Made by a program: the position numbers and the translations under genes. This document shows, piece by piece, positions 14,499-27,049 of a DNA stretch of 32,000 nt (the first letter of the stretch is position 1; the number at the start of each line of letters is the position of its first letter). The notes under the pieces were generated by a model. That model was not told where the DNA came from. It worked only from the letters and a program-made list of their open reading frames with translations, and ran no database searches. This stretch comes from Pyrobaculum calidifontis JCM 11548 (lineage in GTDB: Archaea > Thermoproteota > Thermoprotei > Thermoproteales > Thermoproteaceae). Location of the stretch: positions 660,001-692,000 of the forward strand of contig NC_009073.1 in the NCBI RefSeq assembly GCF_000015805.1, read 5' to 3'.

Positions 14499-14681
14499 CT
14501 ATTGAGACACCTGCCTCCTCGGCCCCACCCTTAGCACAAACTCTCTGCCCCTCCCCACGTAGTGGTTGAAGAGTCCGCCACAGCGCCTACACCTGTAGTG
14601 GGTGACGCGGTAGCCCATCTTCGGCATCTCCCAGCTCTTAACAGCCTCCACATCCTCAGAGCCACAGTAGGGACACTTCAT
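14499..14681 (-). CDS. Small zinc-ribbon protein (60 aa)
   Basis: Two Cys pairs, CPYCG and CRRCG, are spaced as in a zinc ribbon. A TATA-like ttaaaac box lies about 23 nt upstream. Confidence 0.7.
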   Translation of the reverse strand: MKCPYCGSEDVEAVKSWEMPKMGYRVTHYRCRRCGGLFNHYVGRGREFVLRVGPRRQVSQ

Positions 14682-14754
14682 AGTGACATGATTGTACAGT
14701 GTTTTAATCTTTCTCTACCGCTATAGTTATATATTCACAGTAGCGAGACTGAAT

Positions 14755-15204
14755 ATGTATCTACTGTTCAAGGGCAGACTTGCAAACTTCAGCCACAGCC
14801 TCCTCGACTACCTAGAACGCAGAAGTGCGTTAATAAGGCGGTTTCTGCCCGGCGTCTTCCTCTGGGGCGCCTCTAGGCGAAACTCGTTGTTGCAGGAGGG
14901 GGCCCACGTATTTCTATACGTCGCCAAAGAGGTGGGCTTCCCAGGCGGAGTCGTGTTATACGGCGTCTTGCAAAAGCCGGAGGAGCTGTTGGAAAAGTAT
15001 TGGCCAGAGGGCGAGTGGCCAATCCTCCTGCCCATAAAGGTGGAGAGGCTAGCGCCCGGCGTGGCGGAGAGCCCCCTCGACCCCTCCCGGTGGAGACCAG
15101 TGACGCTGGCCCAGCTCCAGCAGATCGGAGTCCGAGTACTGCCCTCACCAGCGCAGCCGTTGCCCGAGGAAAAGGCCAAGGCCTTGTTGTCCCTCCTGAG
15201 GTAA
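14755..15204 (+). CDS. PUA-like (EVE/ASCH-type) domain protein (149 aa)
   Basis: The ATG at 14755 lies about 25 nt after the tatagttatatatt box. The protein shares the pattern LWG...G.hVFLYVAK...VLYGV...YWPEGEWPILLPIKV with the second EVE-like protein at 26561..27049. Its TAA stop overlaps the ATG of the SNF2 gene. Confidence 0.7.
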   Translation: MYLLFKGRLANFSHSLLDYLERRSALIRRFLPGVFLWGASRRNSLLQEGAHVFLYVAKEVGFPGGVVLYGVLQKPEELLEKYWPEGEWPILLPIKVERLAPGVAESPLDPSRWRPVTLAQLQQIGVRVLPSPAQPLPEEKAKALLSLLR

Positions 15205-17663
15205 TGGCCAGCGCCGTCACACCGACAAAGGTACTGGCGGCGTTTAAACAGGCGGGAAAGGAGCCCTACCTCCACCAGCTAGACTTGGTGTCAGACCTCC
15301 TCCTCTTGCCCAGGTTTAAAGTCCTCTTGGCAGACGACGTGGGGCTCGGCAAGACAATTGAAACCCTTGCCTATGTGAAATTGGGCGTGGAGAGCGGGCG
15401 CTTGGCCAAGGTGCTTATAGTTGTCCCAGCCGCGCTTCTCGACCAGTGGCTAGACGAGCTGAGGAAATTCGGCTTCACAGACGAAGAGGTCTACGTGGCT
15501 AGGGAGGCCGTCTTGGCGCCTGGGAGGCCTATCTACGTGGTGACCATGGACAGAGCAAAGAAGGACGAGTACCTCAAGTTGCTGGAGCAAGTCCCGTGGG
15601 ACTTAGTGGTGATAGACGAGGCTCATAAGCTCCGCCTAGACACACAGCGGCTGAGACTAAAGACGTTGTGCGAGAAGGCCAAGAGCTGTCTGCTACTCAC
15701 CGCAACTCCGCACACTGGCGATGAGAAGAGCTACGCCATCTTGAGGGGCACGGTGGATAAGGTGGTGAGGAGAGAGAAGAGAGACGTAGAAGAGTATGAA
15801 ATGCGGAAAATCTTCCCCAACATACGCTACTACATCGTCAGAGTAAAAGCCACGCAAGAGGAGGCCAAGGCCTTGAGGGAGATAATTAGGCTGTTGGAAG
15901 AGGCGGAGGTAGAGCCAATTGTCAGATACGTGGTCCTTAAACGCGCCTTGTCCAGCCCCCTGTCCCTAATCACGACGTTGAACAAGGTCGTAGGCGGCAC
16001 CTGCACCGAGGAGGACCTGGAAGAGGGCGAGTTAGACGGGTGTCTCTCCCACGTGCAAGACCTCTTGAAAAACGTCAAAGCGTACACCGCCGAGGATAGG
16101 AAGCTCTCTGCGCTGAAGAGGGTTTTAAACGGCCCACTGGCCGGCAGAAAGACTATAGTGTTCACCGAATACGCCACCACGGCCCAGTACCTCTTCCAAG
16201 CGCTGGCGGAGAACTGCGACGCGGAGTGGGGCGAGGGGTTTGGCAAAGCCTACTGCAAGGACGGCGCGGTCATGTACACGACTCACAAGGCGAGGGTGGA
16301 GCTCGGCGACGCGATAAATAGAGAAATCGAGGAGCTGGCCGCCAAGCCCAGGCCAGTGCTAATAACCACGGACATATTCACCGAGGGCGTCAACCTCCAG
16401 ATGTTCGACGCAGTGGTGAACTACGAAGTTGTGTGGAGCCCCACAAAACACGTCCAGCGGATAGGCAGAGTGTGGCGGCTGGGACAGAAGAGCCAAGACG
16501 TGGCCGTGGTAGACATGGCGCTAGACGCGCCCGGGACGAGGAGCGAGTTTGAGATGTACGTCGAGTACTTAGATAAGATCTACCAGATAAACCTCACCGC
16601 GCTCACTCCCCACGCCTACGCCGAGTACGAGATATACGAATTCAAGGGAGAGCTAGAGGAGAAGATCAAAGTCAAGATATCCGACCTCGGAGGGGTCTAC
16701 ATACCCACAAGCGACGCCATAGCCGCCATCTTCGAAAAACGGCTCGAAGAGCTGAGAGAAAAAGTGGAAAAACTGCTACAGCTCAAGGAGGCGCTGAGGG
16801 GTGCCAAGGACCGCGAAAAACTCCTCAAAGACCTAAAGGCCAAGCTGGGCTGGCCGCCGGAGAAGAGCCCAGAGCCCGGCGGTGGGTACTACAAGGCCAA
16901 GCTAGTGGTAGAAGTGGGCGGGCTCCCCGCATTAGAAGAGAACCTACTGGCCAGGCTCGACACGCCGCTAAGTAAGACGAGACAAGTAAAAGGCGATGTG
17001 GTGTACAGAGAGGTGGAGCTAAGCGGCGTAGAGATACAGGGAGAGCCAGGCGAAATAAGGCAGGACGAGAAAAAGAAAATAGAGCAAGCCGCCTTGAAGT
17101 TTTTTGCAGACCACCTTTGGACCTACGCGAAGCAACTCATAGGAGACCCAAGGCTGAGAGACAGCGTTAGGCTGAGAATACAGGTAGAGGAGAGAGCCAT
17201 AGTCACCACAAGCGTCTCTCTAGACGACTTCGACGCCGCGGTGGAAGAGGCCCTGAAGAGGAGTGACTATAGGACAAAGACAGAGCACACCGCGGTTAAG
17301 TGCATAAAGGAGTACCTCGTCAAACAAGGCTACAGGATTGTCCGCGACTATGACAGCGCTCCCCGGCCCTTTGACATGGTCGTAGAAAAAGGCGGAAAGA
17401 GGTACACCGTGGAGTGCAAAGGGCGCTACATACGGCCGGGCGAGGCGCTGTCTGTGACCCTGACGGCAAACGAGATGGACTGGGGCTCCAAGTACCCCGA
17501 CAGGCACCTAATATGCGTAGCCACCGTAGAAGGCACGAGGTGCAACACCGTAGAGTGCTACACCTTTGACCAATTCTTAAAAACGTGGAAAGTGGCCACC
17601 AAGCGGGGTCTCGACTACGTGGTAGAGGCAGTCAAAGAAAGCGTCGATAAAGAGAGGCAATAG
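15204..17663 (+). CDS. SNF2-family helicase/translocase with a C-terminal PD-(D/E)xK (DUF3883-like) nuclease-fold domain (819 aa)
   Basis: Helicase motifs are DDVGLGKT (I), VVIDEAHKL (II), LLLTATPHTG (III) and TEGVNLQ...QRIGRVWRLGQ (V/VI). The C-terminal 130 aa carry PFD...VECKG...LTANEMDW...HLICVA. The real start is the ATG at 15204, not 15000. Confidence 0.9.
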   Translation: MASAVTPTKVLAAFKQAGKEPYLHQLDLVSDLLLLPRFKVLLADDVGLGKTIETLAYVKLGVESGRLAKVLIVVPAALLDQWLDELRKFGFTDEEVYVAREAVLAPGRPIYVVTMDRAKKDEYLKLLEQVPWDLVVIDEAHKLRLDTQRLRLKTLCEKAKSCLLLTATPHTGDEKSYAILRGTVDKVVRREKRDVEEYEMRKIFPNIRYYIVRVKATQEEAKALREIIRLLEEAEVEPIVRYVVLKRALSSPLSLITTLNKVVGGTCTEEDLEEGELDGCLSHVQDLLKNVKAYTAEDRKLSALKRVLNGPLAGRKTIVFTEYATTAQYLFQALAENCDAEWGEGFGKAYCKDGAVMYTTHKARVELGDAINREIEELAAKPRPVLITTDIFTEGVNLQMFDAVVNYEVVWSPTKHVQRIGRVWRLGQKSQDVAVVDMALDAPGTRSEFEMYVEYLDKIYQINLTALTPHAYAEYEIYEFKGELEEKIKVKISDLGGVYIPTSDAIAAIFEKRLEELREKVEKLLQLKEALRGAKDREKLLKDLKAKLGWPPEKSPEPGGGYYKAKLVVEVGGLPALEENLLARLDTPLSKTRQVKGDVVYREVELSGVEIQGEPGEIRQDEKKKIEQAALKFFADHLWTYAKQLIGDPRLRDSVRLRIQVEERAIVTTSVSLDDFDAAVEEALKRSDYRTKTEHTAVKCIKEYLVKQGYRIVRDYDSAPRPFDMVVEKGGKRYTVECKGRYIRPGEALSVTLTANEMDWGSKYPDRHLICVATVEGTRCNTVECYTFDQFLKTWKVATKRGLDYVVEAVKESVDKERQ

Positions 17664-18006
17664 CGGCGCCGAAATCCCTCAAAAAGTCGATCCCCCACTG
17701 GAGAAGCCGGTACTCAAGCACCGATGCAAGCGCCGAAGCCTCAAAAGCCCTCATCATATTCACAATACGCCTAGCCTCCTCCGACCGCAACCCCGCCCTC
17801 CTCAGCGCAATGTACAGTAAGGCCCTTTCGCTGAGGTTGGGGTGCTTGACCTCTAACACGTTGCCCTCCACCCGCCAGTCTACACCCTCGTCAAAGGCTA
17901 TAAACAGCCTAAAAAGCGGCGGAAACTCGCCCAGCTTAACACCGCTCCGAAACTTAAGCCTCCCCAACTCCACTACGGCATACTTAGACAAAAACCTCAC
18001 TCTCAT
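17632..18006 (-). CDS. Hypothetical protein (124 aa) coupled to the upstream ATPase gene
   Basis: Its ATG overlaps the TGA of the 1019-aa gene (ATGA at 18003-18006). Its 3' end overlaps the convergent SNF2 gene by 32 nt. I recognise no motif. Confidence 0.6.
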   Translation of the reverse strand: MRVRFLSKYAVVELGRLKFRSGVKLGEFPPLFRLFIAFDEGVDWRVEGNVLEVKHPNLSERALLYIALRRAGLRSEEARRIVNMMRAFEASALASVLEYRLLQWGIDFLRDFGAAIASLYRRFL

Positions 18007-21000
18007 TCCTCCACAATCTTAGTCCACAGAAGCGCGCCCTTGCCCAAGCTCTCAAGCAGAGACTTATCGACAGTTACAGGCTCCTTAAACTTGACAGTGA
18101 CCCCCACGTTCTGAGTCACCGGCTCCACAGCCTTTATAAGCCGACGAGCCTGCTGCAGATGGCCCCTACGCCCCCTAAACTCCAGCCTGAGATTCAAATC
18201 CTCAGAAGCCTCAATAGCCCTAACTTCGACGACCTCTACAATGTCCTCCTTCAACCTCTCAAGAAGTCGGACAGCCTCAGCCGCAGACGACGCAGACACG
18301 GCCACTACCACGTCGCCCACATTCACCACCGCCGTGGACACCTCGCGCCTCCTTCTCACACGCACATTCAAAACTACGCTCCTCTCCACCACGCTACCAT
18401 CGGCAAACTCTGCAACAATCTTCACCACGTACTGCGGATCCTCCCCAACACGTACTTTAAACTGGAAAAACACGTCGTTAACCGTGGTCTCGTGTTGAAC
18501 GCCTGCAAACTCCCAAATGACGCGGGAAATCTTCTCATCAGACTCCACAGCTATCACAACCTCGTCCCCCGGATTCACCTCAGCCAGAGACGTAACCACA
18601 CCGTTGACTTTGACGTCCAGCCTCTTCTTACGCTTTTCAATGCGGTACTTAGCATGCTTTAGATACATCCAGTCCTCTCTCTCCCTCAAAACGTCTGCGA
18701 GGCTACGCCTCACCTCTTCACCGCCTAGCCTCTGATACGTAAACTCAACAGACCCGCGGCTATCCAAATAGGTAAGAAACTGCTCTACAACAGACTCGTT
18801 GACCGAGCCCTCCACGTAAGCCAGCGCCACCTCGGAATTCCTGGGATCCCTCAGCTCGTAGAAACACCCACCCCCCTCCGAGATCCACTGATACTCGCCC
18901 CCCTCCCTCACCACACAGTTGCAATCCTCTCTACACCTCCTAAGAAGCCCCTCCACAAAGTCGTCAAACGACAACGGGTAAGGCGGCGCATCGTCGTTGT
19001 TAAGCCACTGATCCCACAAGTCGCCAATTTTCACAAAGACTTGCGCCCTCCCAAGCGCCCACTCTATTACAGCCTCGGGCTTGCTACTGCCAAGGTACTT
19101 GGCCAAATACTCCAAGCCCCCAGACGCAGAGATCCGCCTACCCAGGAGGACCTCGTCCAGCCACTTCTCCACATACCTCCTAATGTACGACCTAGCCACC
19201 TCCTTTATACGCTCAAGACGCACCTTCACCCCATCCTCCAGCGCCTGCCTGAGAGCTCTATCCTCCACTTGCACAATGTCGGGAAAGTAGCTCTCCAAGT
19301 CCTCCGCCACTCTGTCAACGGCCACCTTCACCCTGCCCAACATGTACAAAGCCCCAGAAAGCTTATCAGGCGGCACAGCCACCTTGCCCAAAAACTCTTT
19401 CACATCCCCAGGCACAGCCCCCTCCCTCGCCCTTACCACAAACAGGTTGTTACGCCTAGGCACCTGCGCCGTCCCCCTGAGGTCCACCAAAAGCGCCGAG
19501 AAGTCCCGCTCCCCCACGTAGTCGGCGGCCTTCTTTGCATCGTCAAAAGAGGACACCCCCTCAGCCTTCCCCTCCTTCCACCCAAGCACTGCAACGCGCT
19601 TGAACCTCTTAGCCACAGACTTGACGAGTTGCTCCACCTCGTCATGGACAGCCTTAGCCCCCTCCTCCTCTGAGACGTACACCAGGGCCTTTGCCAAAGC
19701 CTCGTACTCGTCTGGAAGAGGCAAATAGACGTAGCCCCCCGCGGTCTTCTGCACCCTAAAATCCCCAAGCCTCCTCACCGCGTTAGACACAGGAAGCGCC
19801 CCAAGAACGACATCGTAGTTACCCAAGATAAGCGCGGCCTCATCTGGGTATATCCCACTCCTAGGCATGAGCCTCCCCACAAAGCTACGGTAAATCACAT
19901 GGCGCAGAACCGAGCGGAGGACAAAGTCGTCGCCCGCCGCCTCCTCATCCTTCCTATACAGACCAAGGATGGAGCTCCAGAACTTGCTAAACTCGGGAGG
20001 CGGCTCCACCACCTCGCCAGGCTCAGGCAGATCCCCATGCACCACAAGCCCCCCACCCCTCTCCACCGCGCTCTTCAAAGCCTTCAAGGCAGACTGCAGA
20101 AGGCCCCTAGTGAGCTGAATTCTAGACGCCTTCACAAGGCTCTCCTCGGCGAGCAGGAGGAGCGTCTCAAGCGCCACAGGGTTGAAGGGATACGTCTCAG
20201 CCACCTTCCCATGAAACTCCTTCACCTTGTCCTCCGGCACCACGCCCACGAGATCCCTAAACTCGCGGTAAGGCGGCACCTTGTCAATCCCAGCCCACCT
20301 CCTCACGATATGCACAATGTTCCTCACAGCATCCATCTCAATAATCAGCGGGTCCACCCTCCTCAGCCTTTCCAAGCTAGGCGGCGAATACTGGCCGCTG
20401 GCCAAGCTATACGACACCACCAACGCCTTGCCCGGCCCAGCCTCCACAAACACCTCAGAGAGAAGCTGCATATAGTCCGCAAACTGTGCGCCAAACCTGT
20501 TGTCAAACATCCCAGCCTCGTCAAAGAGGTAGAGGACAGGACCGCGCCCCACCAACTCCCCCCTCAGCAAATCCTTCGTCGGCACGCCGCTCCCCCAAGG
20601 CGGCGACGAAGCGTAACCACCGTGGAAAAGCACCACCCTCAAATCCCCCTCCAAGTCAGGCAACTCCACATCAATCCCATACCTCTTAAGCTCCTTAACC
20701 ACACACTGCCCAACCCCACGACACTCCCTATAAAGAGCCGCCACGTGAAGCACAAACGCCAAAAAGTGCGACTTCCCAGCCCCCAGGTAGGCGGGAAGCA
20801 CAAAGACGTTCTTCCCAGGCCGCCCAGCCAAAACCCCAAACAACACAGACAGCCACCTAACCATCCCCGCCGTGGGGTACGTCACAGAGAAAAACTCCTC
20901 CCTCGAACAATACACCTCGTGACCTGCGACAGGCCGCCCCCCACCAAACAAACAGTCAAACACCACCTTCACATCAACCGCAGGAGATACACCACCAGAC

Positions 21001-21062
21001 ACAAACCTATCCACAACATCAAGCCGCCTAACAAACTCCCTCAACTGCATAAAGCCAAACAC
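18003..21062 (-). CDS. Large P-loop ATPase, DUF499 / BrxC(PglY)-like (about 1015-1019 aa)
   Basis: The Walker A motif is LPAYLGAGKSHF (about 20766-20786) and the Walker B motif is VLYLFDEAG (about 20517-20534), followed by a very long C-terminal region. An alternative start at ATG 21050 fits the tataaaaaat box (21071-21080) better than the GTG at 21062. Confidence 0.85.
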   Translation of the reverse strand: MFGFMQLREFVRRLDVVDRFVSGGVSPAVDVKVVFDCLFGGGRPVAGHEVYCSREEFFSVTYPTAGMVRWLSVLFGVLAGRPGKNVFVLPAYLGAGKSHFLAFVLHVAALYRECRGVGQCVVKELKRYGIDVELPDLEGDLRVVLFHGGYASSPPWGSGVPTKDLLRGELVGRGPVLYLFDEAGMFDNRFGAQFADYMQLLSEVFVEAGPGKALVVSYSLASGQYSPPSLERLRRVDPLIIEMDAVRNIVHIVRRWAGIDKVPPYREFRDLVGVVPEDKVKEFHGKVAETYPFNPVALETLLLLAEESLVKASRIQLTRGLLQSALKALKSAVERGGGLVVHGDLPEPGEVVEPPPEFSKFWSSILGLYRKDEEAAGDDFVLRSVLRHVIYRSFVGRLMPRSGIYPDEAALILGNYDVVLGALPVSNAVRRLGDFRVQKTAGGYVYLPLPDEYEALAKALVYVSEEEGAKAVHDEVEQLVKSVAKRFKRVAVLGWKEGKAEGVSSFDDAKKAADYVGERDFSALLVDLRGTAQVPRRNNLFVVRAREGAVPGDVKEFLGKVAVPPDKLSGALYMLGRVKVAVDRVAEDLESYFPDIVQVEDRALRQALEDGVKVRLERIKEVARSYIRRYVEKWLDEVLLGRRISASGGLEYLAKYLGSSKPEAVIEWALGRAQVFVKIGDLWDQWLNNDDAPPYPLSFDDFVEGLLRRCREDCNCVVREGGEYQWISEGGGCFYELRDPRNSEVALAYVEGSVNESVVEQFLTYLDSRGSVEFTYQRLGGEEVRRSLADVLREREDWMYLKHAKYRIEKRKKRLDVKVNGVVTSLAEVNPGDEVVIAVESDEKISRVIWEFAGVQHETTVNDVFFQFKVRVGEDPQYVVKIVAEFADGSVVERSVVLNVRVRRRREVSTAVVNVGDVVVAVSASSAAEAVRLLERLKEDIVEVVEVRAIEASEDLNLRLEFRGRRGHLQQARRLIKAVEPVTQNVGVTVKFKEPVTVDKSLLESLGKGALLWTKIVEE

Positions 21063-21158: not shown

Positions 21159-24002
21159 CTACATGAGGAGGGAGGAGGCGCCTAGAATCGCCTCGGCGGC
21201 CTTGACGTCTGGGTCGTCTTTGCTTAACACCCCCGCGTCGCAGAGTTTTACAAAGGCGCGGCACAGGGCGAGGACCTCCTTAAACACCTCCTCGCCGAAC
21301 TTGGCCTTGATTTGGTCAAACTTGAACGAGGGGCTGAGGGCCCCCGCCTCGGCCTCTCTAAACGCCTCCAACACCTTCGACCTGCCCCGCACCTTTCCCA
21401 GCGCCGACACATACGCTGGCACAGACGCCTCGGCCGGCGCCACCACCCTAAAAGACTTACGCTTAGCCACATTCGCGCCGCCGGACTCCACGGGCTCCAA
21501 AAGCCCCGCCTTAACCATGTCGCCGTCTGACAGCCCAGTGGCGTACTGCACATACGCGACTGTGTCGCTGTCAACCACGCCGCGCTCCGACGCGGTGCGG
21601 AGCAGGAGATACGCCAGGGCGTAGGGGTCCCGCACCTCCACTCCCAAAAACCGCAGAGCCCCCTCGAACCCAATCGAGGTGGCGGCCCCCAACACCGACT
21701 CGACGTCCAGGACGGCGCCGGCGTACCTCACCTCCTTAAACCTCAAAAGGGCAGAGAGCCCAGCAACATAGGCGTAGACAAAGAAGTCATGCGAAAACGC
21801 CCTGTACTTCTCAAACTCCTTTGCCACAAGCTCCACCACCTTGGCCCTCTGTGCGGGGTCCGCCAAGTCCACTATCCCCTCCCCATCCACTGCCTCCCGC
21901 CTCCTCCACGCCGCCACGAACCCCCCAAGCACCGACGCCTTGCCCCTCGCCACCACGCTCTCCTCGCTCTCAGTAGCCACAGGATACGCCGCGGTCAGCA
22001 CAAGGCCGCTGCGCCTCCAAAGCGCGTCCACCAGCGCCACCCACGCCTCCGGCTTCTTGGCCACGTAGTACACCACGAGGAGGCCCTCCGGCTTGAGGAA
22101 GCGGAGGATGTTGGAGAAGGCCCTGGCGAGGAGGTCGGCGAAGCCCTCCCTCATCTTAAAGTACTCGAAGCGCCCCTCGTTCTCCGACACCTCCCTCGGC
22201 GCAAAGAACTGCCACTGCGTAGTGACCTCCTCCCCAAACTCGTCGAAAAAGGCCTCGGGCAAAAACCTCGGCACGAGGCGACCGCCATCAACGCCGCTGA
22301 GAGCCCGCTTAAGCCACACGTAGTAGAAGTCGCTAAGCTCCGCATAGGGCACGTCGTCGGCGTAGGGCGGATCAGTGAGAACGACGTCAAACACCTCGCC
22401 CTCCAACTTGCTAAGCGAGGCTGCGTCGTCAAGCAAAACCCTAACCCCACCAGGGCTACCAGAGACCGCGGAGACAAGATAAGACAAGCTCTCAATAACA
22501 GTGTTGACGCTCCGGACGTAGGTACCCGTCCACATTGTCCACGGCGACATGTCGTCCCAATTCCACATCATAGCAATACCTCTCATAGAAAGAGAGTGGC
22601 CCATTATCAACGATCGATTCCACCCAGCTACAATTGAGCTATAATCAACGTATTTGCATAATGCTACCGCTAAATACGTCGTTACCGCTTCTGCGTATTT
22701 GTGGGCGTCTTCTCTGCCCCATCCCTCTCCCAGCTTCTCCTCCTCGGCCAGCCTGCCCGCCTCGCGTATAAGCTTCACCAGCTTGAGCAAAGCAAGAAGC
22801 TGACGCGGGTTGAAGAGCTTAAACCATTCGTCAAAGCCATAGAGAATGGGGAAGAGGTACCTGTTGCTATAAGGCGATACAGGCTCTGTCGGTATGTCTG
22901 GGTCTCCCCACATCTCCCTAAGCTTTTCCGCGGCTTTCCACAGCTTTTCCACGTCTTGGCCGTCTGCTGGCTCGAAGCGTAGGTCTCTGCCCTCCGCCCT
23001 CACCTTGACGAGTAGCGTCGGCCTGGCGGGGCTTCCCCTGAGCTCCTCCAGCGTCGTCTCGCCTCTTAGGTAGCGCTCGTATCTCTCGTTCCACTGGCGG
23101 AGGGCCCACTTGACGTACCAGTCGCCGACTTTCTTCTTGGCGCTCGGCTTCACAATCTTCCCGTCGACGGCGCGGTGGTTTATCTCTGCGCCGCAGTGGA
23201 GGCAACGCGCCGTCTCCCGCCTCGCGTCTATGTTCTTGGCGGGCACTCTGTACTCCCTCCCCCCGGCCTTAACCACGCCGCCCTCCCCCTCCTCGCCCCT
23301 AGCCTTAACCTCAGCCCTAACGCGGCCAAGGTCCACTACCCTCACGCCGTTGTTCCACTCCATCCAGGCCAGCCTCTCGTACTCACTGCCCTTCTTTACC
23401 CTTGCCAGCCACCAGTTCCCCACCAGCGGCGTGTGGCGGCCGCAGGCGGGGCACTTCACCTCCCACGTCCCAATGTAAACAGCGGCGTCGCCGTAAAGCC
23501 CCTTGACGTCGGGGTCCTCCCTCAGCCTCTCCACGACCCACCTCCCCCACTTCTCCACCTCCTTGGCCAAGTCAATCCTCCTCTCGGCGGCCCACTTGGG
23601 GTACTCAAGGACGGCCTTGAGGAAGACGTAGGCCGTGGGGAGTAGCTCTACGGCCGTGGCGTCTAGGCCAAGGCGGAGCGCCTCAAGGGGGATAGAGCCG
23701 AAGCCGGCGAAGGGGTCCAACAGCTTCTTCCCCCTTAGCCTCTCTACTAGGCGGGGAGATGGGTTGCACGTGTGTACCGTCTTTCGCTCGCCTCTGCAGG
23801 GGAAGAGGTGTGTGAGGAATTGTTGTGGGTTTATGTCGTCTAGGAGTGCGGCGGCTATTATCGCCCTGGCGCCGGCGAGGGGCTTTCGGGTCCACCAGAA
23901 CACCATCTCCCAGTGGGGCGGCCTGCCGGGCCCCTTCTCCACTTTTGAAAGTTCGTTGATCTCGTCGATGGGGAGCCCCCTCTCCAGGAGGGTCACGTAC
24001 AC
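21159..24002 (-). CDS. DNA methyltransferase with Zn-ribbon insertion (DUF1156 / COG1743-like, N6-adenine or N4-cytosine class), 947 aa
   Basis: The N-terminus carries FWWTRKPLAGARA (DUF1156-like WWxRxP). Motif I is LLDPFAGFGSIP (about 23697-23717). Cys pairs CPACG and CLHCG form the ribbon. Motif IV is VLTDPPYADD (about 22362-22373). Confidence 0.9.
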   Translation of the reverse strand: MYVTLLERGLPIDEINELSKVEKGPGRPPHWEMVFWWTRKPLAGARAIIAAALLDDINPQQFLTHLFPCRGERKTVHTCNPSPRLVERLRGKKLLDPFAGFGSIPLEALRLGLDATAVELLPTAYVFLKAVLEYPKWAAERRIDLAKEVEKWGRWVVERLREDPDVKGLYGDAAVYIGTWEVKCPACGRHTPLVGNWWLARVKKGSEYERLAWMEWNNGVRVVDLGRVRAEVKARGEEGEGGVVKAGGREYRVPAKNIDARRETARCLHCGAEINHRAVDGKIVKPSAKKKVGDWYVKWALRQWNERYERYLRGETTLEELRGSPARPTLLVKVRAEGRDLRFEPADGQDVEKLWKAAEKLREMWGDPDIPTEPVSPYSNRYLFPILYGFDEWFKLFNPRQLLALLKLVKLIREAGRLAEEEKLGEGWGREDAHKYAEAVTTYLAVALCKYVDYSSIVAGWNRSLIMGHSLSMRGIAMMWNWDDMSPWTMWTGTYVRSVNTVIESLSYLVSAVSGSPGGVRVLLDDAASLSKLEGEVFDVVLTDPPYADDVPYAELSDFYYVWLKRALSGVDGGRLVPRFLPEAFFDEFGEEVTTQWQFFAPREVSENEGRFEYFKMREGFADLLARAFSNILRFLKPEGLLVVYYVAKKPEAWVALVDALWRRSGLVLTAAYPVATESEESVVARGKASVLGGFVAAWRRREAVDGEGIVDLADPAQRAKVVELVAKEFEKYRAFSHDFFVYAYVAGLSALLRFKEVRYAGAVLDVESVLGAATSIGFEGALRFLGVEVRDPYALAYLLLRTASERGVVDSDTVAYVQYATGLSDGDMVKAGLLEPVESGGANVAKRKSFRVVAPAEASVPAYVSALGKVRGRSKVLEAFREAEAGALSPSFKFDQIKAKFGEEVFKEVLALCRAFVKLCDAGVLSKDDPDVKAAEAILGASSLLM

Positions 24003-24198: not shown

Positions 24199-24993
24199 GT
24201 GGGGTCGCTGGTTAAGGTGGTTGTGTTTCCTCAGGCGGAGGCTAGGTATAGGGTTGTGGATGAGTTGAAGAGACGTGCAGGGGAGGAACTTGTCTACAAT
24301 AGGATCGTCACAGTTATTCCTAGGAGCGATGTTGAGTCTGTGACTTATGACGATAGAGAGGGCCATTTTGAGAGGGGCATTAAGCTCGTGATTCCGCTTA
24401 AGCTGAAGGTCTCAAGGGGAGACGTGCCTCTGCGGGGCTCTGAGGTGTTGGGTGAGGACTATTTTAGGCTTGAGGTGGAGGTTCCTGAGGAGGTGGTGAC
24501 TCTTAGGGGGGAGTGGAGGGTGAAGAGGAAGGTGACGTGTAGCTTCTTCTACTATGTGGATAGGGATTTGGAAGATGTTGCTGTATTGACTTCCGCAGAG
24601 GGCGTTAAGGCGATTAATGGGGCTGTGGAAGCGCTTAGAATGCTCCACATCTATGTGCCTGATACTAGGCTTGAGCTTCCGAGGGGTCAGAAGTTTAGGG
24701 AGATGTTGAGCAGGCTGGGGGAGCTCGGGTGGATTTCTATCTCTGAGATCCAGGACGTGAGCATTAGGTTCGCTATTGTGAGTGGGAGGTGGCTTGAGAG
24801 GCATCCTGTTGTGTCTGACTTGTCTGAGCGGGGGCAGGTCACGGCCCTGGTCATAAATAAGGAGGGCTTGAGGCTTATACTGAGTGTGAGGGGCATCTAC
24901 GTTCAGCAGCGCCTTGCGGAGGTCGCCGTGGCGGAGCGGGTGGCTGAGGTGGTGAAGGTGTTGAAGGAATTCGGCGTGTTTAAACCCGGTTGA
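24199..24993 (+). CDS. Hypothetical protein (264 aa)
   Basis: Clean ORF with a GTG start and protein-like composition. I recognise no motif. Confidence 0.6.
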   Translation: MGSLVKVVVFPQAEARYRVVDELKRRAGEELVYNRIVTVIPRSDVESVTYDDREGHFERGIKLVIPLKLKVSRGDVPLRGSEVLGEDYFRLEVEVPEEVVTLRGEWRVKRKVTCSFFYYVDRDLEDVAVLTSAEGVKAINGAVEALRMLHIYVPDTRLELPRGQKFREMLSRLGELGWISISEIQDVSIRFAIVSGRWLERHPVVSDLSERGQVTALVINKEGLRLILSVRGIYVQQRLAEVAVAERVAEVVKVLKEFGVFKPG

Positions 24994-25648
24994 GTATTTC
25001 GGCGTATATCTCCTCCATATTTGCTATGGACGGCGGTAGGTCTACCACGACCGTGGTTTTGTGTGTATACACCTTTAGGTCGAGTTGTCTCTTTGCCAGG
25101 TAGTCCTGTATCTTTGCCGCGGCTTTTTGTGCGTTATTCTGGTCTAGGTAGTAGACCTCTATTCTACCGGCCCAGCTCATTGCCCCAAGCTCGCTGTATG
25201 TCAATTTGACGAATTCGCGGATTGCCGCCGCCACGTCCTCGCTCTTCGCTCCCAGCGGCACTAGGAGGAGGGTGACGTCGGTTGAGTGGTCCCTCTCCAC
25301 CTCTGGCGCCTCCACCTCTATGCCGAAGGCCTCTCTGAGGAGCTCGCTGTCGGGTATGGTGTCTTGGGAGGTGTACCATGTGGCTAATATGTACCCACGG
25401 CCGCTCTTGTACAGACACGGGAGTATCTTCTCGTCTTTGCATACATAGAGCCTCATCAGCGTGCTGTCTATGTGCTTAGTCGCGGTGGAGCTTCTGAAGA
25501 ACGCCGTTATGTAGATTTGCACAAGCTTCTTGGCCTTCTTTATCTCTGTCTCTAGGTATTCCCTAATTTGCGGCGCTACGTCGAGACCGAGCTTGACTAG
25601 CGATATCACGCTCCTTATCAGCTCGACTGTGGCGGTGGCCTCTGTCAC
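24980..25648 (-). CDS. Hypothetical protein (222 aa)
   Basis: The ORF has a GTG start, with its own AT-rich box (ttatttaag, 25668-25676) in the 29-bp gap after the MazG-like gene. Its 3' end overlaps the convergent 264-aa gene by 14 nt. Confidence 0.6.
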   Translation of the reverse strand: MTEATATVELIRSVISLVKLGLDVAPQIREYLETEIKKAKKLVQIYITAFFRSSTATKHIDSTLMRLYVCKDEKILPCLYKSGRGYILATWYTSQDTIPDSELLREAFGIEVEAPEVERDHSTDVTLLLVPLGAKSEDVAAAIREFVKLTYSELGAMSWAGRIEVYYLDQNNAQKAAAKIQDYLAKRQLDLKVYTHKTTVVVDLPPSIANMEEIYAEILNRV

Positions 25649-25677
25649 GTTATTTAATTGCTGTGGTTATTTAAGTT

Positions 25678-26034
25678 TTAGAACCTCTTCATGTTTTCTT
25701 CCAGTTTTTTGAAGTATGCCTGTTCTAGGTCTATGCCGAGGAAGCTGGCCATGGTTAGGACGTAGATGAAGACGTCTGTCAGTTCCTCCTCTATCTTTGG
25801 CAGAGCCTCTTGAAGCGTGAGGCCTTTCCCTCCGTATACGGTGGCGCGGACTACCTTTTTGACGACGTTGGCGAGCTCTCCCACCTCGCCGGCGAGGGCG
25901 TTGGTGAAGTACTCAAGCCGCAGGGCGGCGTCTCGGTCGCCTTCTACGCGCCAGAAGTGTGGGAACTTCTCTCCGGAGAACTGGGCCTGTATCTTGGCGA
26001 GCTCTCTCAGCTCCACTTCCGCCCCCGCGCGCAT
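25678..26034 (-). CDS. MazG-like all-alpha nucleoside triphosphate pyrophosphohydrolase (118 aa)
   Basis: The metal-binding motifs LAGEVGELANVVKK and IEEELTDVFIYVL are followed by LGIDLEQAYFKKLEENMKRF. This is the canonical small MazG/type-2 dUTPase-like pattern. Confidence 0.85.
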   Translation of the reverse strand: MRAGAEVELRELAKIQAQFSGEKFPHFWRVEGDRDAALRLEYFTNALAGEVGELANVVKKVVRATVYGGKGLTLQEALPKIEEELTDVFIYVLTMASFLGIDLEQAYFKKLEENMKRF

Positions 26035-26036
26035 GT

Positions 26037-26558
26037 TTATATCTCCGGCATTTTACATGCAGATATTTTCGCAAGTAAGGCCGGCATCACCTCTCTATAG
26101 AGGAGGGCTGGCACTACGTAGACGTCGCGGCCGAGCTCCGCCTCTCTGAGGTCGTATTCTCTAAGCATTTTCCTATATTCCGCGTTCATCGATCTAAGCG
26201 CTTTTCTGATCCTTCTGGGAACGTTTGTCATTATTACTAGGTAGCGCGTTCGCCCTGACTTTGGCATCTTTTCTAGCTTTTTTACCAGTTTTTCTATGTA
26301 TTTCTTGCCACCTACTTCGTGCCCTACCTCAGATTCTATGACCACTTCTATGTCGCCGTAGGTTAAAACTACGTCTACTCCTTCTTCGCTACCTGGGCTT
26401 ATCTTCTCTATTTCAAAGCCTAGGGCCCTTGCGATTGCTATTATGTCTATGAGAGAGTAGTCGTGTAGCGTCTCTGCGGCATTATCTACGAATTTCCTGA
26501 GAGATACCCTTTCAGGTTTGCGCTCTTGCGAATCTTGGTCTTGTCTCGGCTTCGGCAT
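26037..26558 (-). CDS. Hypothetical protein (173 aa), possibly restriction-endonuclease-like fold
   Basis: The middle gene of a tight operon, with 2-nt gaps on both sides. The segment ALGFEIEKISPGSEEGVDVVLTYGDIEVVIESEVG resembles the E...D...ExK core of Mrr/PD-(D/E)xK proteins, but it has E-S-E in place of ExK. Confidence 0.6.
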   Translation of the reverse strand: MPKPRQDQDSQERKPERVSLRKFVDNAAETLHDYSLIDIIAIARALGFEIEKISPGSEEGVDVVLTYGDIEVVIESEVGHEVGGKKYIEKLVKKLEKMPKSGRTRYLVIMTNVPRRIRKALRSMNAEYRKMLREYDLREAELGRDVYVVPALLYREVMPALLAKISACKMPEI

Positions 26559-26560
26559 GT

Positions 26561-27049
26561 CTAGGCTATTTTAACGTAGATGCCCATTGATTTCAGTTTT
26601 TCTCTGAGTTTCTCTAGCACGGTCTCTGCCTCGTGGGGTGGGGCCTCGCCTATCCCGTAGCCGTCTACGTAGTTTTCCAAGTGCGTGAAGTAGGCGCCTA
26701 GGGGCTCCTCGGAGTATATGATGATGTAGAAGGAGACGCGCCATGGGAATAAGACCTTGCCCTTGTTGACTTCCTCTGGCCAGACGGGCGTCTGGTCGTC
26801 GTAGAATCTATCCTTCGCTATGCCTACGGCGTGTATGTCGCCGCTTTTGGCGAGTTGGAAAAATACCACGTCGCCAGCCGAGAGGTTGTTGTAGAGGTGG
26901 AGGAATTGCCGCCAGTTTTTTGCAAGTGTTGACTTTTTCCTGCTTGACTTACTGTCGTGCGGCTTTTTCCAAAAGCCCCAGAGGAGCCTCTCGCTGGCGG
27001 TTTTTATGTTCTCTTTGTTCTTGGAGGCGAATACCCAGTACTTGCCCAT
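26561..27049 (-). CDS. EVE/PUA-like domain protein (162 aa)
   Basis: The pattern KYWVFASKN...LLWGFWKK...GDVVFFQLAKSGDIHAVGIAKDRFYDD...VLFPWRVSF is EVE-type. A tttttatc box lies about 27 nt upstream on the minus strand. Confidence 0.7.
   Translation of the reverse strand: MGKYWVFASKNKENIKTASERLLWGFWKKPHDSKSSRKKSTLAKNWRQFLHLYNNLSAGDVVFFQLAKSGDIHAVGIAKDRFYDDQTPVWPEEVNKGKVLFPWRVSFYIIIYSEEPLGAYFTHLENYVDGYGIGEAPPHEAETVLEKLREKLKSMGIYVKIA

What the first reader, a model, noticed from the sequence alone, without database searches (positions are those of the whole stretch)
14755..17663. PUA/EVE-like protein translationally coupled (TAATG) to an SNF2 translocase fused to a PD-(D/E)xK-like domain
**Seen in the sequence**
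- The TAA stop at 15202-15204 shares its last A with the ATG at 15204-15206.
- The helicase has intact motifs I, II (DEAH), III, V and VI.
- After a coiled-coil-like K/E-rich linker (about 16650-16850), it ends in a domain with PFD (about 17373) and VECKG (17409-17423), followed by LTANEMDW...HLICVA. This is the pattern of DUF3883-type restriction-endonuclease-fold domains.

**Established knowledge**
- EVE/ASCH/PUA-like domains bind modified bases and are frequently attached to type IV (modification-dependent) restriction modules.

**Inference**
- The pair could be a modification-sensing, ATP-driven nuclease.
- Its placement opposite a methylase-ATPase module would be an unusual pairing of a modification-writing arm with a modification-reading arm.
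Basis: partly seen in the sequence, partly recalled or inferred. Interest (0 to 1): 0.75.

Follow-up and report, generated by a model that had tools for sequence, protein, structure and literature searches.

The report
EVE reader coupled to Hma/BREX-related helicase-nuclease
A small modified-base "reader" protein sits directly in front of the helicase-nuclease of a known methylase/ATPase/helicase anti-virus system in Pyrobaculum calidifontis; this kind of partnership was already described for archaea in 2020, so the locus is a rearranged new example rather than a new system.

Summary
TAA 15202-15204 overlaps ATG 15204-15206, and the helicase motifs, K/E-rich linker, PFD and VECKG lie where stated.

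- **149-aa protein:** it folds confidently (pLDDT 96). Its best PDB matches are all PUA-like readers (ASCH, EVE, THYN1, archaeal McrB N-domain, YTH). Pfam's EVE model misses it.
- **Helicase C-terminus:** it is a NOV_C/DUF3883 PD-(D/E)xK domain. D724, E737-x-K739 and E757 are invariant in 18 sequences.

The "unusual pairing" is not unusual. The helicase-nuclease is the standard effector of the adjacent DUF1156 methylase / DUF499 ATPase module, known as Hma or the type-1 "BREX-related" system. Five orthologous loci are colinear (methylase, ATPase, ~130-aa gene, helicase) and lack the EVE gene. Here the helicase gene is inverted and coupled to the EVE-like gene.

Bell et al. 2020 already reported standalone EVE proteins partnered with this system in archaea.

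The EVE-like family is tiny (19 representatives) and crenarchaeal. It recurs beside or fused to SNF2/nuclease, type I R-M, type II-like methylase and McrB-like modules.

Verdict: a new member of a known kind, with moderate-to-low interest.

The parts
14499..14681 (-). 60-aa zinc-ribbon protein (CxxC...CxxC), transcribed divergently from the EVE-like gene. Probable accessory or regulator.
   Evidence: ORF, with only weak Zn-ribbon Pfam hits. It is 87-88% identical to genes flanking the orthologous systems in P. oguniense (L002 3307-3474) and T. uzoniensis (L003 12405-12581). It is 35% identical (E 7e-7) to the N-terminus of P0124, a Zn-ribbon/EVE-like fusion protein.
14727..14734 (+). TTATATAT, a TATA-box-like element about 24 nt upstream of the ATG at 14755. 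Suggests a leaderless transcript that starts the EVE-helicase unit.
Evidence: Read directly from the sequence.
14755..15204 (+). 149-aa standalone EVE-like (PUA-like superfamily) protein, predicted reader of modified bases. Public accessions ABO08141.1 and WP_011849399.1.
   Evidence: The AF2 model has pLDDT 96.2 and pTM 0.90. All top Foldseek PDB hits are ASCH, EVE, THYN1-5mC DNA, TgMcrB-NTD-m5C DNA or YTH, with E 1e-5 to 1e-4 and TM 0.5-0.6. hhalign against canonical EVE gives probability 92%, E 5.9e-7. There was no Pfam, PADLOC or NCBIfam hit. A UniRef entry names it 'EVE domain-containing protein'. Aromatic residues conserved in the family are W37, F53, Y55, Y82, W83, W88 and W113.
15204..16620 (+). 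SNF2/SF2 ATPase core of the helicase-nuclease (residues 1-~470). There is no N-terminal TUDOR-like extension.
   Evidence: Pfam SNF2-rel_dom, Helicase_C and ResIII. PADLOC HmaA E 8e-36 and DrmD E 3e-40, both partial. Motif positions are; motif I starts at residue 45.
16644..16880 (+). K/E-rich, predicted helical linker (residues ~481-560).
   Evidence: K+E counts per 20-residue block.
17283..17663 (+). C-terminal NOV_C (DUF3883) PD-(D/E)xK nuclease domain. Predicted catalytic residues: E694 (17283-17285), D724 (17373-17375), E737 (17412-17414), K739 (17418-17420) and E757 (17472-17474).
   Evidence: PF13020 scores 25.4 bits against a cut-off of 22.1, E 1.5e-5, on fragment 566-819. Many orthologues carry PF13020. 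All five residues are invariant in 18 sequences. The AF2 model has pLDDT above 90 in this domain. Top Foldseek hits are Hjc, EcoRV, PvuII, I-Ssp6803I and the SPARDA nuclease. The equivalent D/E/K/E residues are needed for nickase activity in HmaA (PMC11232893).
17632..18006 (-). 124-aa protein of unknown fold, the conserved fourth gene of this archaeal clade. Its 3' end overlaps the helicase 3' end by 32 nt, in convergent orientation.
   Evidence: It aligns end to end (25-28% identity, 20 invariant columns) with the 131-137-aa genes that lie between DUF499 and the helicase in L002, L003 and L004. It has no Pfam hit. The overlap is read.
18003..21062 (-). 1019-aa DUF499-type (HmaC / BrxC-like) ATPase.
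   Evidence: Weak direct hits: HmaC 6e-5, DUF499 1.5e-4 and NCBIfam DUF499_antiphage 3.6e-6. It is 33-35% identical over its full length to the proteins at this position in L002-L005; the L002-L004 copies carry PF04465 hits, weak to faint except in L003.
21159..24002 (-). 947-aa DUF1156 N6-adenine-type DNA methyltransferase (HmaB / COG1743) with a DPPY motif.
   Evidence: Pfam DUF1156 E 1.9e-10. PADLOC MTase_II E 3.5e-202 and HmaB E 6e-53. NCBIfam DUF1156_antiphage E 9e-31. The DPPY motif is visible in the translation.

Best explanation
The window comes from Pyrobaculum calidifontis. It carries a four-gene restriction-modification-like defence system of the Hma / type-1 'DUF499-centred BREX-related' kind.

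The four genes are:
- a DUF1156 N6-methyltransferase
- a DUF499 ORC/Cdc6-like ATPase
- a conserved ~125-aa protein
- an SNF2 translocase fused to a NOV_C (DUF3883) PD-(D/E)xK nuclease

In relatives these four genes form one co-directional operon. Here the helicase-nuclease gene is inverted. It is transcribed convergently to the other three genes, behind a 149-aa standalone EVE-like gene whose stop codon overlaps its start codon.

Shown here: the domain identities, the intact catalytic residues, the rearrangement, and the recurrent association of this EVE-like family with restriction modules.

Inferred:
1. The methylase marks host DNA.
2. The ATPase scaffolds or senses.
3. The SNF2-NOV_C protein translocates on DNA and nicks or cuts unmarked DNA.
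4. The EVE-like protein binds a flipped-out modified base in invader DNA. That base differs from the host's own mark.
5. By binding, it recruits or licenses the helicase-nuclease. This adds a type-IV-like, modification-dependent arm to the system, as Bell et al. 2020 proposed for this class.
For: **System identity**
- The organism is identified by exact protein matches.
- Orthologous loci L002, L003, L004/5, L011 and L012 show the colinear order methylase, DUF499, ~130 aa, helicase.
- The 124-aa gene is homologous to the fourth gene of those loci.

**Nuclease**
- NOV_C scores above Pfam's cut-off.
- D724, E737, K739 and E757 are invariant.
- The model's best fold matches are all PD-(D/E)xK nucleases.
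- The homologous domain of Halomonas HmaA is an experimentally shown metal-dependent nickase required for T4 defence (PMC11232893).

**EVE-like protein**
- The model has pLDDT 96.
- All top PDB hits are PUA-like modified-base readers, including two solved with 5mC DNA.
- hhalign to canonical EVE gives probability 92%.

**Functional link of the EVE-like family to restriction modules**
- Two representatives are fused to the N-terminus of AAA_5 (McrB-type) ATPases, the position of McrB specificity domains.
- One is fused to an ATPase with a PD-ExK-like motif.
- L007 has the gene next to an AAA_5 gene.
- L001, L015, L024 and L028 have it beside an SNF2 helicase plus a metallo-beta-lactamase nuclease; L001 also has a DUF1156-type methylase and L015 a weak match to one.
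- L014 has it beside a DUF1156 methylase and DUF499.
- L016, L018 and L027 have it downstream of hsdM-hsdS-hsdR.
- L006, L010, L017, L019-22 and L026 have it overlapping a downstream N6_N4 methylase.

**Published precedent:** PMC7641849 and PMC12839542.
Against: - Nothing here shows binding, a physical EVE-helicase contact, or co-transcription.
- The five closest helicase orthologue loci have no EVE-like gene, so the helicase-nuclease clearly works without it.
- The closest EVE-like homologues (69-71% identity, L008 and L009) are not next to a helicase or a methylase.
- No SNF2 fusion of this domain exists among the 19 representatives.
- Foldseek TM-scores are moderate (0.5-0.6), and the Pfam EVE model does not match. 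Ligand specificity therefore cannot be inferred.
- ASCH and EVE proteins can also bind modified RNA.
Confidence: 0.6

Rival explanations
1. The EVE-like protein reads the host's own mark, the N6-methyladenine written by the adjacent DUF1156 methylase. It acts as a self-recognition brake, or as a positioning factor, for the helicase-nuclease. It does not sense foreign modifications.
For: The fold also matches YTH m6A readers. The system's methylase is of the N6-adenine type with a DPPY motif. In L006, L010 and related loci the EVE-like gene overlaps a downstream amino-methyltransferase gene, an arrangement in which reader and writer could share a mark. PMC12839542 proposes that TUDOR and DUF3780 reader modules in these systems may scan self DNA for marks. 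This helicase lacks a TUDOR domain.
Against: Fusion to the N-terminus of McrB-type AAA_5 ATPases is the classic layout of modification-dependent (type IV) targeting, not of self-protection. Orthologous systems manage self/non-self discrimination without the protein.
Confidence: 0.2
2. The adjacency is circumstantial. The EVE-like gene is an independent small defence-island gene, or an RNA-binding gene. It ended up upstream of the helicase through the rearrangement that inverted the helicase gene. The 1-nt overlap only provides a promoter and ribosome entry for the displaced helicase gene. The proteins do not cooperate.
For: The closest homologues (L008, L009) stand alone in a defence-island-like context with an AAA_15/AAA_21 ATPase, PaREP1 and SocA-like genes. 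Helicase orthologues lack the partner. The island has a lower GC content than its flanks. Gene order around the EVE-like gene varies greatly between loci.
Against: About 10 of 11 informative, non-redundant contexts place the gene within one or two genes of restriction-type enzymes, in two crenarchaeal orders. Four different fusion architectures exist. That is hard to explain by island clustering alone.
Confidence: 0.15

Closest known systems
COG1743 (DUF1156 methylase) -> DUF499 -> SWI2/SNF2-nuclease -> EVE systems of archaea (Bell et al. 2020, BMC Biol, PMC7641849, Fig. S8)
   Same: The same four component types are present: a DUF1156 methylase, a DUF499 ATPase, an SNF2 helicase fused to a PD-(D/E)xK nuclease, and a standalone EVE-type protein. 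The host is archaeal. The predicted logic is also the same, with EVE discriminating modified foreign DNA for the helicase-nuclease.
   Different: The published order has EVE downstream of the helicase in one operon. Here EVE is upstream and overlaps the helicase start, and the pair is inverted relative to the methylase-ATPase genes. The EVE-like protein belongs to a small divergent clade missed by Pfam EVE. Neither P. calidifontis nor ABO08141 was found in the stored supplementary text, which is truncated. An extra ~125-aa gene is conserved.
Hma system (HmaA/B/C; Payne et al. 2021) and the characterised Halomonas meridiana HmaA (PMC11232893)
   Same: An Snf2 core plus a C-terminal NOV_C (PF13020) domain with the D, ExK and extra E residues. 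The partners are a DUF1156 methylase and a DUF499 ATPase.
   Different: The window's helicase has 819 aa against about 1180 for HmaA and lacks the N-terminal region. PADLOC HmaA matches only the helicase core. Hma has no described EVE partner. Activity is untested in archaea.
Type-1 DUF499-centred BREX-related (BR) system (Rakesh & Krishnan, NAR 2026, PMC12839542)
   Same: A tripartite core of ATPase, N6-methyltransferase and helicase, with a C-terminal active PD-(D/E)xK REase on the helicase.
   Different: The helicase lacks the N-terminal TUDOR domain said to be typical of type 1. A small standalone gene sits where type 2 has DUF3780, but it does not match DUF3780 in Pfam. The helicase gene is inverted, and there is an EVE-like add-on.
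EVE-McrB / YTH-like McrB type IV restriction (e.g. Thermococcus gammatolerans McrB N-terminal domain, PDB 6p0g)
   Same: A PUA-like reader domain serves as the specificity module for an NTP-driven restriction motor. Members of this same EVE-like family are fused to AAA_5 (McrB-type) ATPases.

Membership tests
PUA-like superfamily / EVE domain | PUA-like pseudo-barrel fold shared by EVE, ASCH and YTH | tested here: met
   The AF2 model has pLDDT 96.2. The top 50 Foldseek PDB hits are almost all ASCH, EVE, THYN1, TgMcrB-NTD or YTH, with best E 1.1e-5 and TM 0.5-0.6.
PUA-like superfamily / EVE domain | Match to the curated Pfam EVE model (PF01878) | tested here: not met
   The window protein has no hit even at E<=10. 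Only 1 of 10 family members gives a sub-threshold EVE hit, at E 0.016.
PUA-like superfamily / EVE domain | Profile-level sequence homology to canonical EVE proteins | tested here: met
   hhalign of the family alignment A2 against 8 EVE sequences from Bell et al. gives probability 92.2% and E 5.9e-7 over 101 columns. W37-G38 aligns with the W-x-G-V-R-N motif. The best, non-significant, PDB sequence hit is the EVE-like PH1033.
PUA-like superfamily / EVE domain | Binds a flipped-out modified base in an aromatic pocket | not testable with these tools
   Only conserved aromatic residues can be listed: W37, F53, Y55, Y82, W83, W88 and W113. Their geometry and ligand were not examined.
NOV_C / DUF3883 (PF13020), PD-(D/E)xK clan | Pfam PF13020 match above the gathering score | tested here: met
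   25.4 bits against a cut-off of 22.1, E 1.5e-5, at residues 694-774 when residues 566-819 are scanned alone. The hit was not listed when the whole protein was scanned at E<=0.01. Many 45-50%-identical orthologues carry PF13020.
NOV_C / DUF3883 (PF13020), PD-(D/E)xK clan | Catalytic D ... E-x-K, plus the extra Glu, as in HmaA D1084/E1104/K1106/E1121 | tested here: met
   D724, E737, K739, E757 and E694 are invariant in 18 sequences. The fold matches Hjc, EcoRV and PvuII.
NOV_C / DUF3883 (PF13020), PD-(D/E)xK clan | Metal-dependent DNA nicking or cleavage | not testable with these tools
   Shown only for Halomonas HmaA (PMC11232893).
Hma / type-1 DUF499-centred BREX-related system | DUF1156 (COG1743) N6-methyltransferase in the locus | tested here: met
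   Pfam DUF1156 E 1.9e-10, PADLOC HmaB E 6e-53, NCBIfam DUF1156_antiphage E 9e-31.
Hma / type-1 DUF499-centred BREX-related system | DUF499 ORC/Cdc6-like ATPase in the locus | tested here: met
   Direct hits are weak (HmaC 6e-5, DUF499_antiphage 3.6e-6). The protein is 33-35% identical over ~1000 aa to the proteins at this position in L002-L005; the L002-L004 copies carry PF04465 hits, weak to faint except in L003.
Hma / type-1 DUF499-centred BREX-related system | Swi2/Snf2 helicase fused to a C-terminal active REase | tested here: met
Hma / type-1 DUF499-centred BREX-related system | N-terminal TUDOR domain on the helicase (stated for type-1 and type-3 BR helicases in PMC12839542) | tested here: not met
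   Motif I begins at residue 45 and the conserved YLHQ at residue 22, which leaves no room for an N-terminal domain. Orthologues are also about 800 aa.
Hma / type-1 DUF499-centred BREX-related system | Core genes in one co-directional operon | tested here: not met
   In the window the helicase is on the + strand and the methylase, DUF499 and 124-aa genes are on the - strand, with 3' ends overlapping by 32 nt. The feature is met in orthologues L002-L005, L011 and L012.
DISARM (DrmD helicase) | Full-length DrmD match plus DrmA/DrmB (DUF1998) and DrmC partners | tested here: not met
   NCBIfam DISARM_DrmD scores 140.5 bits against a cut-off of 610 and covers the helicase core only. No DrmA, DrmB or DrmC genes are in the locus.
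Type IV (modification-dependent) restriction, McrBC-like | Reader domain attached to an NTPase motor, with no cognate methylase | tested here: not met
Family members P0135 and P0140 do have the McrB-like fused layout.

The most novel reading that the evidence does not exclude
This small crenarchaeal clade of EVE-like proteins may be a portable 'plug-in' reader that docks onto at least five different restriction architectures: the BR/Hma SNF2-nuclease, SNF2 plus an MBL nuclease, type I R-M, a type II-like methylase module, and McrB-type AAA+. The clade is unrecognised by Pfam and has 19 representatives among 1.84 billion proteins. In P. calidifontis it may have captured the effector gene out of the methylase-ATPase operon. 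The system could then restrict both unmodified and hypermodified invaders.
Probability: 0.3. Interest if true: 0.5.

Novelty: new member of a known kind. Interest (0 to 1): 0.3.

Why it matters
It could be used to ask how an R-M-like BREX-related system gains a modification-dependent (type IV-like) arm, a mechanism so far predicted only from genomics. The clean split into two convergent units (reader plus effector, and methylase plus ATPase plus small protein) would make each arm easy to test separately. The EVE-like clade, with its several different partners, could also show how standalone reader proteins are shared between defence systems. The concept and the component families are already published, so the gain is a good test case rather than a new principle.

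Tried and rejected
**Rejected readings**
- DISARM DrmD, DpdE, BrxH and ZorD. These gave the best or high PADLOC/NCBIfam hits, but they cover only the SNF2 core, fall far below cut-offs, and lack their partner genes.
- An EVE-SNF2 fusion elsewhere. None was found among the 19 family representatives. None of the top 120 helicase homologues carries a Pfam PUA-like domain.
- Conserved synteny between the window and the closest EVE homologue loci, L008 and L009. Nothing is shared beyond the gene itself.
- The 124-aa gene as DUF3780. It has no Pfam match.

**Searches that found nothing useful**
- Inverted or direct repeats that could explain the helicase inversion. Only short chance-level matches appeared.
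- The sigma-70 promoter and terminator scan found nothing and does not apply to archaea.

- The search for related loci with the 10-sequence alignment failed because it had no conserved stretch. It was rerun with the 2-sequence alignment.
- The unfiltered tblastx output was dominated by high-GC noise and had to be filtered by score.


Full report
**1. What is in the sequence**

The window is from Pyrobaculum calidifontis. The 149-aa and 819-aa proteins are exact matches to ABO08141.1/WP_011849399.1 and ABO08142.1/WP_011849400.1.

- TAA 15202-15204 overlaps ATG 15204-15206.
- The motifs are DVGLGKT, DEAH, TATP, TDIFTEGVNL and QRIGRVWRLGQ.
- A K/E-rich stretch covers residues ~481-560.
- PFD lies at 17367-17375, VECKG at 17409-17423, followed by ANEMDW and HLICVA.

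Pfam confirms an SNF2/SF2 core.

An AT-rich TTATATAT sits about 24 nt upstream of the ATG at 14755. It looks like a crenarchaeal TATA box for a leaderless transcript. This is an inference and was not tested.

**2. The 149-aa protein is a divergent EVE-like, PUA-superfamily protein**

- It has no hit in Pfam, PADLOC or NCBIfam.
- At E<=10, only one of ten family members gives a sub-threshold EVE hit.
- An exhaustive HMMER search of 1.84 billion representatives found only 19 relatives.
- With a 10-sequence alignment, AlphaFold2 gives pLDDT 96.2 and pTM 0.90.
- Foldseek against the PDB returns almost only PUA-like readers: ZmASCH, the EVE proteins 2eve, 2ar1, 1wmm and 2g2x, human THYN1 bound to 5mC DNA, the T. 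gammatolerans McrB N-domain bound to m5C DNA, and then YTH domains. Best E is 1e-5 and TM is 0.5-0.6.
- Profile-profile comparison with canonical EVE sequences gives probability 92% and E 6e-7.
- One UniRef entry already calls it 'EVE domain-containing protein'.

**3. The helicase C-terminus is a NOV_C/DUF3883 PD-(D/E)xK nuclease**

- Scanned alone, residues 566-819 hit PF13020 above its gathering score (25.4 against 22.1 bits). There are weaker hits to the Mrr_cat and MTES_1575 nuclease families.
- Many orthologues at 45-50% identity carry PF13020.
- E694, D724, E737, K739 and E757 are invariant across 18 sequences.
- The model has pLDDT above 90 in this domain. Its best matches are Hjc, EcoRV, PvuII, I-Ssp6803I and the SPARDA nuclease. 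The E-values are weak because the model also contains a non-nuclease part.
- The same D/ExK/E set is required for the nickase activity and the anti-T4 activity of Halomonas HmaA (PMC11232893).

**4. The surroundings change the interpretation**

The genes on the opposite strand are:
- a DUF1156 methylase (21159-24002)
- a DUF499-type ATPase (18003-21062)
- a 124-aa gene (17632-18006)

Five loci with orthologous helicases were examined: P. oguniense, Thermoproteus uzoniensis, Thermofilum pendens and two metagenome contigs. All have the co-directional order methylase, DUF499, ~130-aa gene, helicase-NOV_C. None has the EVE-like gene. The 124-aa protein aligns end to end with those ~130-aa proteins.

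The helicase-nuclease is therefore the regular effector of the 'methylase-ATPase module', not a separate arm facing it. What is special in P. calidifontis is the gene arrangement. The helicase gene is inverted, its 3' end overlaps the 124-aa gene by 32 nt, and it now sits behind the EVE-like gene. No repeats that could explain the inversion were found. The island has a lower GC content than its flanks.

**5. Is the EVE-helicase link more than an accident?**

The family's other members argue that it is.

*Fusions*
- Two representatives carry the domain at the N-terminus of AAA_5 (McrB-type) ATPases.
- One carries it C-terminal to an ATPase with a PD-ExK-like motif.
- One carries it after a zinc ribbon.

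*Neighbourhoods*

| Loci | Context of the EVE-like gene |
|---|---|
| L001 | DUF1156-type methylase, SNF2 helicase, metallo-beta-lactamase nuclease |
| L015, L024, L028 | SNF2, MBL nuclease, ~520-aa protein, then EVE |
| L014 | DUF1156 methylase plus DUF499 |
| L016, L018, L027 | hsdM-hsdS-hsdR, then EVE |
| L023 | EVE divergent from an inferred type I R-M operon (inferred from similarity to L016, L018 and L027, not scanned) |
| L006, L010, L017, L019-22, L026 | EVE overlapping an N6_N4 methylase, followed by an unknown 400-aa gene |
| L007 | EVE, then AAA_5 |
| L008/L009 | Alone, in a defence-island-like setting |

By my count, about 10 of 11 informative non-redundant contexts are restriction-type.

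Against a strict dependence: the helicase orthologues do without the gene, and no SNF2 fusion exists.

**6. Mechanism**

*Shown here:* component identities, intact catalytic residues, the rearrangement, and the recurrent association.

*Inferred:*
- The methylase protects host DNA.
- DUF499 scaffolds or senses.
- The SNF2-NOV_C protein translocates and nicks or cuts.
- The EVE-like protein recognises a modified base in invader DNA and recruits or licenses the effector.

This follows Bell et al. 2020 and the McrB-type fusions.

*Rivals:*
- The protein reads the host's own m6A mark. YTH-like matches and the overlapping EVE-methylase gene pairs support this.
- The adjacency is circumstantial and arose through the rearrangement.

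**7. Comparison with what is known**

- Bell et al. [quoted passage not shown]
- The core system was named Hma by Payne et al. 2021.
- HmaA was characterised experimentally (PMC11232893).
- The system was reclassified as a DUF499-centred BREX-related system in 2026 (PMC12839542).

The window fits type 1 (C-terminal REase) with four differences:
- the helicase has no N-terminal TUDOR domain
- there is a conserved extra ~125-aa gene
- the helicase gene is inverted
- the EVE-like gene is upstream of the helicase rather than downstream

**8. Verdict**

The fold and domain calls are supported. The claim of an unusual pairing is not supported. The locus is a new, rearranged member of a published kind, and it carries a divergent EVE-like clade. 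Interest is moderate to low.

Noticed in passing
window 14499-14681 (-); L002 3307-3474; L003 12405-12581; P0124: A 60-aa zinc-ribbon protein lies divergent from the EVE-like gene. It is 87-88% identical to genes flanking the orthologous systems in P. oguniense (upstream of the methylase) and T. uzoniensis (overlapping the helicase 3' end). That is far more conserved than the system's own proteins (33-59%). A 35%-identical zinc ribbon is fused to an EVE-like domain in P0124. It could be a system-linked regulator or a marker of an integration hotspot.
   Followed up: partly
window 17632-17663: The helicase-nuclease gene (+) and the 124-aa gene (-) converge, and their 3' ends overlap by 32 nt. 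Transcripts from the two units would be antisense to each other here.
   Followed up: partly
window 17632-18006 (-); L002 9603-10016; L003 9606-10001; L004 9603-10001; L011 4421-4816; L012 7608-7997: A conserved ~125-137-aa gene with no Pfam match always lies between DUF499 and the helicase in this archaeal clade. It sits where type-2 BR systems have DUF3780, and these helicases lack the TUDOR domain. It may be an undescribed reader or adaptor. Its fold was not predicted.
   Followed up: partly
window 24199-27049: Four ORFs (264, 222, 173 and 162 aa) have no Pfam hit. They lie in the lowest-GC part of the window (0.50-0.53, against 0.60-0.65 in the flanks). They may be further island cargo next to the methylase.
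   Followed up: no
L010 10001-13120; L006; L017; L019-L022; L026: A recurrent Sulfolobales module. The EVE-like gene overlaps a downstream N6_N4 methyltransferase gene. An unknown 400-aa protein follows, with no Pfam or PADLOC hit; it is a candidate nuclease. A Schlafen-group-3-like helicase gene lies divergently upstream (absent from L010 and L026).
   Followed up: partly
L015 99-6453; L024 353-6459; L028; L001: A second recurrent module: an SNF2 helicase without a fused nuclease, then a DRMBL-type metallo-beta-lactamase nuclease, then a ~520-aa zinc-ribbon protein (in L015 weakly similar to the DUF1156 methylase), then the EVE-like gene. L001 has a DUF1156-type methylase upstream and the EVE gene convergent. 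It looks like an Hma/BR-like variant without DUF499 and with a separate nuclease.
   Followed up: partly
P0125 (581 aa), P0135 (552 aa), P0140 (558 aa): Fusion proteins of the EVE-like domain. In P0135 and P0140 the domain is N-terminal to AAA_5, McrB-type ATPases with a DEINR motif. In P0125 it is C-terminal to a P-loop ATPase that carries a 'DVLLPDGRCIEIK' PD-ExK-like motif.
   Followed up: partly
window 15204-17663, Pfam behaviour: PF13020 (NOV_C) was not reported when the whole 819-aa protein was scanned at E<=0.01. It scored above the gathering cut-off when residues 566-819 were scanned alone. Whole-protein annotation pipelines may therefore miss the nuclease domain in this clade.
   Followed up: yes
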